DNA from: Escherichia coli
Lineage (GTDB): Bacteria; Pseudomonadota; Gammaproteobacteria; Enterobacterales; Enterobacteriaceae
NCBI RefSeq assembly: GCF_036507355.1
Contig: NZ_AP027878.1
Length of the DNA stretch: 64,000 nt
Direction: 5' to 3' (one strand)
Of the stretch, positions 52,974 through 53,972 are shown piece by piece. The first letter of the stretch is position 1. Every line of letters begins with the position of its first letter. A program made the position numbers and the translations under genes. The notes below the pieces were generated by a model. That model was not told the origin of the DNA, made no database searches, and saw only the letters and a program-made list of their open reading frames with translations.

Positions 52974-53972
52974 TTATCCGTTACCGCGCGACGGTTTCTG
53001 CGTGATAAACGTCTCAAGCATCTTTTCCGCAATTGCCGACCAGGTGTGACACTGGACCTTTTCAGCATTTTTCACGCGATCAACGCGAGCAATAACCTCA
53101 TCCCAATCAATCCGCGACTTGATAACCATATGGTTCACCAAAGCCAGGCGATCTGGCGGAAGGCAATCGGGAGGCGTTAATACCAACGCCCCGCACATTG
53201 CCGCCTCAAGAACAGTTAATCCAAGGCTTTCGGGATGCGTAACGATAAAAACGTCACTCTTACGCAATTCAGCTGCAAATTCGGTTGCTGGCACCGGCGT
53301 CCGTCTGTATGGAATTACCGAAATATTCCCCGGATCAATGGTAACCAATCCGTCATCAGTCAACGTTCTGGCCTCATACGGAACGGTCAGACGCTGAAGG
53401 TTCATAAGGATACTTAAGGAGTGATCAAAACCACTAACATCAAATGCAGCGTGGTCTACAAAAATACGCAGAACATCGTCCGTTTTGGTTTCCAGATGGA
53501 ACAGCTCCTGATTCGCTGCCCATCCAACATGTTTGTTAAAGCGATTATGACGTTCTAACCGACCGGGATTATCCAGGTACCGCCAGGTATCATCGCGGAC
53601 AGTAAAAGTAATATCGACTGGTGCCGAATCCAGCATAGAACCGTCATATACCTGGGCTACCCATCCAGAGAATCGGCGACACAGTTGCATGCCTATTTCC
53701 CTGGGTACCGTAGTAAAATACCTCAATCCTGGTGCCAAAATGGCCTTCGCAGAACATGCTGTCGCAGCAGTCAACACAGCTTCAACATAATCCTCGGGGC
53801 TTTCGACGCCAGGGGAATATGGACGATGGTATTGCATTGTTACCCCTGCCTCACTAAAGGCGCAGGCCAGGTTATAAGACCACATTTCCGTATATGTTTT
53901 CACATCACTGATGGCTGCAAATTTTCGCCCAATGATCAGGATGTTCATCGGCTTTTCCTCATTCCATTGCAT
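52974..53972 (-). CDS. Glycosyltransferase-like protein (GT-B C-terminal signature) downstream of ban
   Basis: 332 aa; ...VFIVTHPESLGLTVLEAAMCGALVLTP... resembles the GT group 1 motif. Confidence 0.5.
   Translation of the reverse strand: MQWNEEKPMNILIIGRKFAAISDVKTYTEMWSYNLACAFSEAGVTMQYHRPYSPGVESPEDYVEAVLTAATACSAKAILAPGLRYFTTVPREIGMQLCRRFSGWVAQVYDGSMLDSAPVDITFTVRDDTWRYLDNPGRLERHNRFNKHVGWAANQELFHLETKTDDVLRIFVDHAAFDVSGFDHSLSILMNLQRLTVPYEARTLTDDGLVTIDPGNISVIPYRRTPVPATEFAAELRKSDVFIVTHPESLGLTVLEAAMCGALVLTPPDCLPPDRLALVNHMVIKSRIDWDEVIARVDRVKNAEKVQCHTWSAIAEKMLETFITQKPSRGNG

What the first reader, a model, noticed from the sequence alone, without database searches (positions are those of the whole stretch)
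52974..53972. Glycosyltransferase-like gene as the last gene of the ban helicase operon
The 332-aa ORF has a GT-B-type C-terminal signature (HPESLGLTVLEAAMCGALVLTP) and is co-directional with ban, ending at a bidirectional terminator. Linking a sugar transferase to a replicative helicase operon hints at DNA or protein modification during replication.
Basis: inference. Interest (0 to 1): 0.45.

Follow-up and report, generated by a model that had tools for sequence, protein, structure and literature searches.

The report
Phage P1 dbn, a putative glycosyltransferase
The flagged ORF is the long-annotated phage P1 gene dbn, which does have a sugar-transferase fold, but its conserved partners are three other sugar-transferase-like P1 genes (pmgO, pmgP, pmgQ), not the ban helicase, so a role in DNA replication is unlikely.

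Summary
The window is bacteriophage P1 (100% identity). The ORF at 52974-53972 (-) is dbn ("downstream of ban"), annotated since 2004 as "function unknown, possible glycosyltransferase". P7 calls it glt and RefSeq calls it a GT family 4 protein.

- The ORF is intact and shares one base with the ban stop codon (TAATG).
- It ends at a hairpin with T-runs on both strands.
- It carries an invariant EX7E motif.

The replication-linked reading is not supported:
- Only P1-like elements place dbn next to ban, and 9 of 81 of those have another ORF in between.
- No non-P1 homologue has a DnaB-like neighbour.
- Five unrelated phage lineages carry dbn with homologues of P1 pmgO and pmgP (Maf/CstII-like fold) and pmgQ (GT8-like). 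In four of them the genes form one tight cassette.
- Five bacterial homologues sit beside a WaaZ/MptE-like gene in loci with kps-type capsule genes.

All four P1 genes are dispensable in the laboratory, yet dbn is under purifying selection (dN/dS about 0.13).

Best reading: an accessory glycan-building module whose acceptor is unknown. I favour a Kdo-type glycolipid such as the LPS core, then protein. DNA is unlikely.

The parts
52974..53972 (-). dbn ORF as annotated in P1 (332 aa). The conserved core starts at Met9 (window 53948; 324 aa). It is a GT4-like GT-B glycosyltransferase with EX7E at E248/E256.
52927..52953 (.). Hairpin (AAAAGCCCG-loop-CGGGCTTTT) between the converging genes 5 and dbn. 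T-runs follow the GC stem on both strands, so it looks like a bidirectional intrinsic terminator.
   Evidence: not found by the simple scan
53972..55336 (-). ban, the DnaB-like replicative helicase. Its stop codon overlaps the annotated dbn ATG by one base (TAATG).
54582..54609 (-). Predicted sigma-70 promoter inside ban (annotated P2dbn in the P1 record). It could express dbn independently of the C1-controlled ban promoter. This is a prediction only.
46377..47039 (-). pmgO. MptE/Maf/GT42-like; PHROG 4603 'alpha-2,3-sialyltransferase'. Its homologues travel with dbn homologues in other phages.
45853..46479 (-). pmgP, a paralogue of pmgO. The AlphaFold model (pLDDT 94) best matches the Maf glycosyltransferase, archaeal MptE pyrophosphokinase and CstI sialyltransferase.
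44481..45182 (-). pmgQ. GT-A with a DLD (DxD-type) motif, GT8/GT77-like (matches AgtA, GlyE, LgtC); PHROG 1962 'glycosyltransferase'.

Best explanation
Dbn is a soluble cytoplasmic glycosyltransferase of the retaining GT-B (GT4-like) type. It probably uses an NDP-sugar donor held by the EX7E C-terminal domain.

Its place behind ban is a gene-order feature of the P1 lineage. That position gives it early, C1-controlled co-transcription and possibly translational coupling, but it is not a functional link to replication.

Dbn is the optional fourth enzyme of a glycan-building module. The core of the module is PmgO and PmgP (small Maf/CstII/WaaZ-like enzymes, probably transferring a CMP-activated ulosonic acid such as Kdo, the only such donor in E. 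coli K-12) plus PmgQ (a GT8-like retaining GT-A). Together they would assemble a short Kdo-containing oligosaccharide on a non-DNA acceptor.

The acceptor I favour, by inference only, is a glycolipid such as the LPS inner core at the cytoplasmic face of the inner membrane. Modifying it would change the cell surface that P1 itself uses as a receptor.

Shown here: the fold, the motif, purifying selection, gene neighbourhoods, and (from papers) laboratory dispensability. Inferred: joint action of the four proteins, the donor sugars, the acceptor and the biological pay-off.
For: Fold and motif:
- AlphaFold pLDDT 88.1, pTM 0.86.
- Foldseek against PDB matches GT4 enzymes: GlgM 1.3e-8, PimB' 5.7e-8.
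- E248, E256 and H246 are invariant in 58 sequences.

Selection: about 0.13 dN/dS over 39 P1-like alleles, and 80 of 81 loci keep the ORF intact. The gene is present in 472 PLSDB plasmids.

Phage neighbourhoods, from four metagenomic contigs, one NCBI Citrobacter record and two isolated phages:
- O-P-X-Dbn-Q in L004 (X is an extra GT-A-like gene).
- O-P-Dbn-Q in L006 and in phages EP_H11 and IME392.
- P-Dbn-Q-O in L007.
- O-P-Q about 5 kb from Dbn in L003; L005 is the same lineage, with P and Q seen about 6 kb from Dbn.

Co-occurrence: all 22 Dbn-positive records among 50,697 phage records are also PmgP-positive.

Bacterial neighbourhoods: 5 of 5 bacterial homologues with enough flank lie within about 4 kb of an MptE/WaaZ_KDO_III-like gene, and 4 of the 5 within about 600 bp. 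Four of these loci also show kps-type capsule genes among KpsM/T, KpsD, KpsF, KpsU-like and Capsule_synth.

Partner identities:
- hhalign: PmgO versus the WaaZ-like set 94%, PmgP versus PmgO 97.5%.
- WaaZ-like profile versus CstII, full length, 3e-4.
- PmgQ profile versus AgtA 7.6e-5, with weaker hits to GT8 GlyE and LgtC.

Laboratory phenotype: dbn, pmgO, pmgP and pmgQ are nonessential by CRISPRi (PMC10695390).

Donor precedent: Maf enzymes use endogenous CMP-Kdo in E. coli (bioRxiv 10.1101/2020.06.03.131540).
Against: - No experiment shows any activity, donor or acceptor for Dbn or its partners.
- Pfam PF00534 scores just below its gathering cut-off.
- In P1 itself, dbn is 6.5 kb from pmgO-Q, in a different operon across the tail genes.
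- PmgP-family genes are far commoner than dbn (572 versus 23 clusters). Dbn is therefore not needed for the core function and could act alone.
- The module is C1-repressed or late-expressed in P1, and sits in what looks like the late region of lambdoid phages. That leaves little time to remodel surface LPS during a lytic cycle and fits virion-protein glycosylation at least as well.
- The number of independent contexts is small: five phage lineages and five bacterial contigs.
Confidence: 0.5

Rival explanations
1. Protein O-glycosylation module. PmgO/PmgP act like Maf enzymes and attach Kdo (or another ulosonic acid) to Ser/Thr of a virion or host protein. PmgQ and Dbn then extend the glycan, by analogy with mycobacteriophage virion glycosylation and with the multi-step glycosylation of streptococcal serine-rich adhesins.
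For: - Maf enzymes make Ser/Thr-O-Kdo in E. coli.
- PmgQ's PDB matches include AgtA and GlyE, and Dbn's include GtfC, Gtf3 and GtfA; all of these glycosylate proteins.
- The cassette lies between the lysis and terminase genes in phiNP and just upstream of terminase in L004 and L006. In P1, pmgL-pmgQ lie downstream of the late promoter LPpmgL.
Against: - PmgO/P are about 200-aa catalytic cores without the extra substrate-binding domains of the 632-residue Maf.
- The carriers have unrelated virion types (P1 myovirus, lambda-like phages, about 110-kb phages, jumbo phages), so no shared structural acceptor is evident.
- Bacterial relatives of Dbn and its partner lie in polysaccharide loci, not protein-glycosylation loci.
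- The P1 virion proteome paper does not mention glycosylation, although it did not look for it.
Confidence: 0.22
2. One reading: Dbn glycosylates phage DNA (or a replication protein) during replication, like T4 alpha/beta-glucosyltransferases or the HY126 DNA arabinosyltransferase. This would explain its place in the helicase operon.
For: - dbn is co-transcribed with ban and lies near dmt.
- ban and dbn respond together in a delta-hfq host.
Against: - The adjacency to ban is confined to P1-like elements and is interrupted in 9 of 81 of them. There is no DnaB-like gene in any of the 16 non-P1 loci.
- Known DNA sugar transferases need a hydroxylated or hydroxymethylated base made by dedicated enzymes (PMC13326640). 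None is annotated in the P1 regions examined, and from general knowledge P1 DNA is not hypermodified.
- Dbn is acidic (pI 5.7).
- The published knockouts show no change in antirestriction.
- Similarity to the DNA enzymes is only at fold level (10-12% identity), below many GT4 enzymes.
Confidence: 0.05
3. Dbn is a stand-alone accessory ('moron') glycosyltransferase, acting independently of PmgO/P/Q on a host surface polymer (O-antigen, ECA, colanic acid) or a small molecule. The neighbourhood pattern would only reflect a shared hotspot for accessory genes.
For: - In P1 and in L003/L005 dbn is separated from pmgO-Q by 5-7 kb.
- PmgP-family genes usually occur without dbn.
- Predicted internal promoters P1dbn and P2dbn could drive it separately.
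Against: - In four independent lineages dbn is inserted inside the O-P-Q block with overlapping or abutting reading frames.
- Bacterial homologues repeat the pairing with a WaaZ-like gene.
- All 22 Dbn-positive phage records are PmgP-positive.
Confidence: 0.15

Closest known systems
CAZy GT4 / Pfam Glycos_transf_1 retaining GT-B enzymes (PimA, PimB', BshA, GlgM, WaaG, WaaB)
   Different: Only 10-15% identity to any solved member. The Pfam score is just below the gathering cut-off. At 324 aa the protein is shorter than most of these enzymes, and its N-terminal domain matches no sequence family. It forms its own small family (PHROG 2518, 'unknown function'; 255 representatives). Donor and acceptor are unknown.
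LPS/LOS core assembly enzyme sets (E. coli WaaG/WaaB GT4, WaaO/WaaR/WaaJ GT8, WaaZ Kdo-III transferase; Campylobacter/Neisseria CstII and LgtC)
   Same: The P1 set Dbn + PmgQ + PmgO/PmgP has the same mix of enzyme types: GT4-like, GT8-like and a CstII/WaaZ-like CMP-ulosonic-acid transferase. The composition of the Waa system is from general knowledge.
   Different: No orthology: the WaaZ model TIGR04437 scores E = 0.1 for PmgP and nothing for PmgO. The genes are phage-borne, dispensable and split between two operons in P1. No effect on LPS has been shown.
Phage DNA sugar transferases (T4 AGT/BGT; HY126 5-hydroxycytosine arabinosyltransferase)
   Same: GT-B fold, phage-encoded, early expression.
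   Different: Similarity is at fold level only. There is no base-hydroxylating pathway, the protein is acidic, and the conserved neighbours are other glycosyltransferases rather than nucleotide-metabolism genes.
Maf (DUF115/MptE-like) flagellin glycosyltransferases and mycobacteriophage virion glycosylation
   Same: The partners PmgO/PmgP share the Maf catalytic fold. Maf can use CMP-Kdo in E. coli. Phage-encoded glycosyltransferases near structural genes have a precedent in mycobacteriophage reports.
   Different: PmgO/P lack Maf's flanking domains. No glycosylated P1 protein is known. The mycobacteriophage work concerns phages of a different host group.

Membership tests
GT-B fold glycosyltransferases | Two Rossmann-like alpha/beta domains with an inter-domain cleft | tested here: met
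CAZy GT4 / Pfam PF00534 Glycos_transf_1 | EX7E motif in the C-terminal domain | tested here: met
   E248 and E256, seven residues apart, are invariant in alignments of 20 and 58 sequences.
CAZy GT4 / Pfam PF00534 Glycos_transf_1 | Profile score above the curated gathering threshold | tested here: not met
   25.0 bits against a 26.4-bit cut-off, E = 1.5e-5, covering only residues 229-315. Some close relatives carry a precomputed PF00534 hit, so this is a marginal failure.
CAZy GT4 / Pfam PF00534 Glycos_transf_1 | Retaining transfer from an NDP-sugar donor | not testable with these tools
   Needs enzymology. It is inferred only from the nearest structural neighbours.
Phage DNA glycosyltransferases (T4 AGT/BGT, HY126 type) | Co-occurrence with enzymes that make a hydroxylated or hydroxymethylated pyrimidine acceptor in DNA | tested here: not met
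   No such gene is annotated in the P1 regions examined or seen next to any homologue; the neighbours are glycosyltransferase-like genes. The requirement is described in PMC13326640.
Phage DNA glycosyltransferases (T4 AGT/BGT, HY126 type) | Sequence or closest-fold relationship to a known DNA sugar transferase | tested here: inconclusive
Replication-module gene (functionally tied to the DnaB-like helicase Ban) | Conserved linkage to a replicative helicase across lineages | tested here: not met
   tblastn with Ban finds nothing in the 16 non-P1 loci. Within P1-likes, 9 of 81 loci have an extra ORF between ban and dbn.
PmgO-PmgP-PmgQ-Dbn cassette (proposed here) | Dbn homologue encoded next to or near homologues of PmgO, PmgP and PmgQ | tested here: met
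   The genes are contiguous in L004, L006, L007 and EP_H11/IME392. They lie within about 6-7 kb in L003, L005 and P1 (in L005 only P and Q were seen). All 22 Dbn-positive phage records are PmgP-positive.

The most novel reading that the evidence does not exclude
Dbn, PmgO, PmgP and PmgQ form a glycosylation cassette that I found described nowhere in the searchable literature. Three of the four have been labelled 'putative morphogenetic' in P1 for twenty years. The cassette is spread among temperate and virulent phages of Gram-negative bacteria. It would use the host's CMP-Kdo to start a Kdo-containing glycan, on the LPS inner core or on proteins. If the acceptor is LPS, P1 would be remodelling its own receptor during infection, which could serve superinfection exclusion or stop progeny being lost on cell debris.
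Probability: 0.3. Interest if true: 0.6.

Novelty: already known. Interest (0 to 1): 0.3.

Why it matters
As flagged, the finding rediscovers a public annotation of a model phage, so it adds little on its own. The follow-up adds two things.

First, it removes the appealing but unsupported link to replication and DNA modification.

Second, it regroups four function-unknown P1 genes (dbn, pmgO, pmgP, pmgQ) into one candidate glycan-building module that recurs in unrelated phages, with relatives in bacterial capsule loci. That turns "function unknown, nonessential" into a concrete and inexpensive experiment: express the four genes and examine LPS, proteins and DNA by mass spectrometry. If the module proves to act on LPS or on virions, it would be a new kind of host-surface or virion modification by enterobacterial phages. 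It would also matter for P1-like phage-plasmids, which are common in clinical E. coli (472 PLSDB plasmids carry dbn).

Tried and rejected
- The genome-contig scan with a 16-sequence Dbn alignment returned only one P1-like locus and one weak Prochlorococcus hit, so it gave no useful context.
- Two viral-contig scans (alignments A1 and A9) were saturated by P1-like contigs and yielded no new lineages. They were useful only for the junction and dN/dS analyses.
- The afdb50 fold library was not available.
- The simple terminator scan missed the dbn/gene 5 hairpin; folding confirmed it.
- PADLOC gave no hit for any of the four proteins, so no link to a catalogued defence system was found.
- NCBIfam gave nothing meaningful for Dbn, PmgO or PmgQ, and only E = 0.1 to WaaZ for PmgP. 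Membership of the WaaZ family is therefore rejected; only superfamily-level similarity stands.
- I asked whether P1 Pap might be a PAP2 lipid phosphatase, which would have supported an LPS role. It is a HAD/PNKP-type phosphatase, so that argument was dropped.
- The gene downstream of dbn in L096 is not a PmgQ homologue (23% identity) and should be ignored in alignment A6.
- Searches of the held papers for dbn, pmgO/P/Q, WaaZ with phage, virion glycosylation, and P1-like with glycosyltransferase found no functional study. The 2004 P1 genome paper is not held.

Full report
**Identity of the locus**

Window 52900-54100 is 100% identical to bacteriophage P1 (AF234172, AF234173, NC_005856) and 96-99% identical to P7, RCS47, SJ46 and other P1-like phages. 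The flagged ORF at 52974-53972 (-) is P1 dbn ("downstream of ban"). The P1 record annotates it as "function unknown, possible glycosyltransferase". P7 annotates it as glt, and RefSeq names the RCS47 copy "glycosyltransferase family 4 protein".

**Checking the observation**

- The 332-aa ORF and the quoted motif are present.
- dbn is on the same strand as ban. The ban TAA and the dbn ATG share one base (TAATG).
- Between the dbn stop and the stop of the converging baseplate gene 5 lies a hairpin at 52927-52953.
  - It folds at -17.6 kcal/mol on the dbn strand (z = -4.6) and -18.1 kcal/mol on the opposite strand (z = -2.3).
  - A T/U-rich run follows the GC stem on each strand. "Bidirectional terminator" is a fair description.
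  - The simple scan missed it, and it is not annotated in the P1 record.
- The record places dbn in the C1-controlled ban operon and predicts two internal promoters within ban. One of these, P2dbn, is the only promoter-like site the scan found in the region.
- In a published P1vir transcriptome, ban and dbn are both over-expressed at 20 min in a delta-hfq host, which is consistent with co-transcription.

**Is it a glycosyltransferase?**

Sequence evidence is weak. Pfam Glycos_transf_1 scores E = 1.5e-5 and 25.0 bits against a 26.4-bit cut-off, over residues 229-315 only. The gene's PHROG family (2518) has no assigned function.

Structural evidence is strong.
- An AlphaFold model built on 20 homologues has pLDDT 88.1 and pTM 0.86.
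- Foldseek against PDB returns GT-B enzymes over both domains. The top matches are GlgM (1.3e-8), the phage HY126 glycosyltransferase (2.3e-8) and PimB' (5.7e-8).
- The EX7E glutamates (E248, E256) and H246 are invariant in a 58-sequence family alignment.

The gene is also maintained in nature:
- 80 of 81 P1-like loci keep the ORF intact.
- dN/dS is about 0.13.
- It occurs in 472 PLSDB plasmids, 450 of them at 95% identity or more.

**Start codon**

All non-P1 homologues begin at the Met9 equivalent (MKILIIG). In 9 of 81 P1-like loci a roughly 100-aa ORF (PHROG 12809, unknown function) lies between ban and dbn. It starts at the same ATG that overlaps the ban stop, and dbn then starts at Met9 behind an AAGGAG site. 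P1's first eight codons (MQWNEEKP) therefore look like a remnant of that ORF's start left by a deletion. The conserved protein is 324 aa.

**Is it tied to the helicase?**

No. tblastn with Ban finds nothing in the 16 non-P1 loci, which carry either a dbn homologue or the pmgO-P-Q cassette. Within P1-likes the juxtaposition is not constant either.

**What it actually travels with**

The Dbn family is small: 23 clusters at 90% identity and 255 representatives at 50% identity.

Every phage context with enough flanking sequence also carries homologues of P1 PmgO, PmgP and PmgQ:

| Context | Gene order |
|---|---|
| L004, lambda-like contig | O-P-X-Dbn-Q, just upstream of terminase (X is an extra GT-A-like gene) |
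| L006, lambda-like contig | O-P-Dbn-Q |
| L007 | P-Dbn-Q-O |
| E. coli phages EP_H11 and IME392 (111-116 kb) | O-P-Dbn-Q |
| L003, 95-kb Citrobacter record (L005 is the same lineage) | O-P-Q about 5 kb from Dbn (in L005 only P and Q were seen, about 6 kb away) |
| P1 (this window) | pmgO 46377-47039, pmgP 45853-46479, pmgQ 44481-45182, all (-) |

In P1 these genes are about 6.5 kb from dbn, across the tail and baseplate genes 26 to 5. They lie in the operon downstream of the C1 operator Oppp and the late promoter LPpmgL.

Among 50,697 phage records, all 22 with a Dbn match also have a PmgP match. Five PmgP-positive phages lack Dbn. One of them, the C. rodentium phage phiNP, has O-P-Q between Rz and terS. 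PmgP-family clusters far outnumber Dbn clusters (572 versus 23). O-P-Q therefore looks like the core, and Dbn like an optional fourth enzyme.

**Bacterial relatives**

Five bacterial contigs carry a Dbn homologue at 35-42% identity: L008, L012, L013, L097 and L098. Each places it within about 4 kb of an MptE-like/WaaZ_KDO_III-like gene, and four of the five within about 600 bp. Four of these loci also show ABC-transporter (kps-type) capsule genes, among KpsM/T, KpsD, KpsF (SIS+CBS), a KpsU-like CMP-Kdo synthetase domain and Capsule_synth. L012 is too short to show them.

**What the partners are**

- PmgO and PmgP are paralogues (hhalign 97.5%). They are related to the bacterial WaaZ-like neighbours at 94% and 84% probability.
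- The profile of those neighbours matches the GT42 sialyltransferase CstII over its full length (3e-4).
- PHROG labels PmgO "alpha-2,3-sialyltransferase" and PmgQ "glycosyltransferase".
- The PmgQ profile matches the retaining GT-A enzyme AgtA (7.6e-5), with weaker hits to GT8 GlyE and LgtC. It has a conserved DLD (DxD-type) motif.
- They are not WaaZ orthologues.

**Phenotypes from the literature**

- CRISPRi scores dbn, pmgO, pmgP, ppp and pmgQ as nonessential (PMC10695390).
- In the P1 single-gene knockout library, 24 of 29 mutants had no plaquing defect and unchanged antirestriction. Among Pmg proteins, only PmgC and PmgG were found in the virion proteome (PMC9024508).
- I found no functional study of dbn or pmgO/P/Q in the searchable library.

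**Mechanism**

Shown:
- Dbn is a GT4-like GT-B protein with an intact nucleotide-sugar-binding motif.
- It is under purifying selection.
- It is dispensable in the laboratory.
- Across lineages it is linked to three other glycosyltransferase-like genes rather than to replication genes.

Inferred: the four proteins build a short glycan. PmgO/PmgP would add a CMP-activated ulosonic acid. In E. coli K-12 that can only be Kdo, and Maf-type enzymes do use endogenous CMP-Kdo in E. coli. PmgQ and Dbn would add hexose-type sugars with retention of configuration.

Acceptor: I favour a glycolipid such as the LPS inner core, for three reasons.
- The bacterial Dbn/WaaZ-like pairs lie in polysaccharide loci.
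- PmgO/P are minimal catalytic cores like CstII and WaaZ, rather than multidomain Maf proteins.
- Phages with unrelated virions share the cassette.

The enzyme mix also mirrors LPS core assembly (GT4 WaaG/WaaB, GT8 WaaO/R/J, WaaZ; from general knowledge). P1's receptor is the LPS core, also from general knowledge.

Against this, the module is C1-repressed or late-expressed, which suits virion-protein glycosylation at least as well. That is the main rival (about 0.2).

DNA glycosylation is unlikely (about 0.05):
- Known DNA sugar transferases need a hydroxylated base (PMC13326640).
- Dbn is acidic (pI 5.7).
- None of the four proteins has a membrane-spanning segment.
- PADLOC finds no defence-system relation.

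**Verdict**

- Observation: confirmed.
- Glycosyltransferase call: correct, but already public.
- Replication-linked interpretation: not supported.
- What the follow-up adds: the regrouping of dbn with pmgO/pmgP/pmgQ as a candidate glycosylation module. This is a testable hypothesis, not a demonstrated function.

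Noticed in passing
window 53948-53972 (-); loci L082-L086, L088-L090, L092 around the ban/dbn junction: In 9 of 81 P1-like contigs a roughly 100-aa ORF (PHROG 12809, unknown function) sits between ban and dbn. 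It starts at the same ATG that overlaps the ban stop. P1's first eight dbn codons (MQWNEEKP) look like the remnant of that ORF after a deletion, so the conserved Dbn start is Met9.
   Followed up: yes
window 44481-47039 (-): pmgO, pmgP, pmgQ: Three P1 genes long annotated as 'putative morphogenetic' (head morphogenesis 'hdm' in P7) are glycosyltransferase-like: PmgO/PmgP have a Maf/CstII/MptE fold and PmgQ is a GT8-like GT-A. They are nonessential and were not detected in virions, so the morphogenesis label appears to be based on position only.
   Followed up: yes
window 45179-45871 (-): ppp: The lambda NinI-like Ser/Thr phosphatase gene ppp (Metallophos, E = 9e-16) is inserted between pmgP and pmgQ in P1. 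It is absent from the same cassette in the other phages examined, so it looks like an independent insertion.
   Followed up: partly
window 42337-42843 (-): pap: P1 'acid phosphatase' Pap matches the HAD-type PNKP phosphatase domain (E = 5e-12), not a PAP2 lipid phosphatase. Whether it belongs with the neighbouring sugar-transferase genes (HAD sugar-phosphate phosphatases exist) was not examined.
   Followed up: partly
window 47203-47781 (-): pmgM: PmgM has a weak VRR-NUC nuclease-domain match (E = 3e-4, 21.3 bits, below the 23.8-bit cut-off). This is another 'morphogenetic' label that may be wrong.
   Followed up: no
L004 7435-8004 (+): One lambda-like contig carries an extra 189-aa gene between the pmgP-like and dbn-like genes. 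It contains a DAD (DxD-type) motif in WIDADSQL and has weak matches to nucleotide-diphospho-sugar transferases (E = 0.019), so it may be a fifth glycosyltransferase in that cassette.
   Followed up: partly
phage records OP752703 (RAS14) and OP883945 (CM1); AP018399 (XacN1); MN047793 (Xoo-sp13): Jumbo Stenotrophomonas phages carry both a distant Dbn-like C-terminal domain (26% identity) and a PmgP-like gene about 14 kb apart. Xanthomonas jumbo phages carry a PmgP-like gene only. The PmgO/P family therefore extends well beyond enterobacterial phages.
   Followed up: no
L003 6806-8001 (+) and L005 6860-8004 (+): In the Citrobacter-type lineage, dbn is preceded by two conserved genes of unknown function (PHROGs 8514 and 15291). 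The first has a weak TRASH-like zinc-finger match. These take the position that ban occupies in P1.
   Followed up: partly
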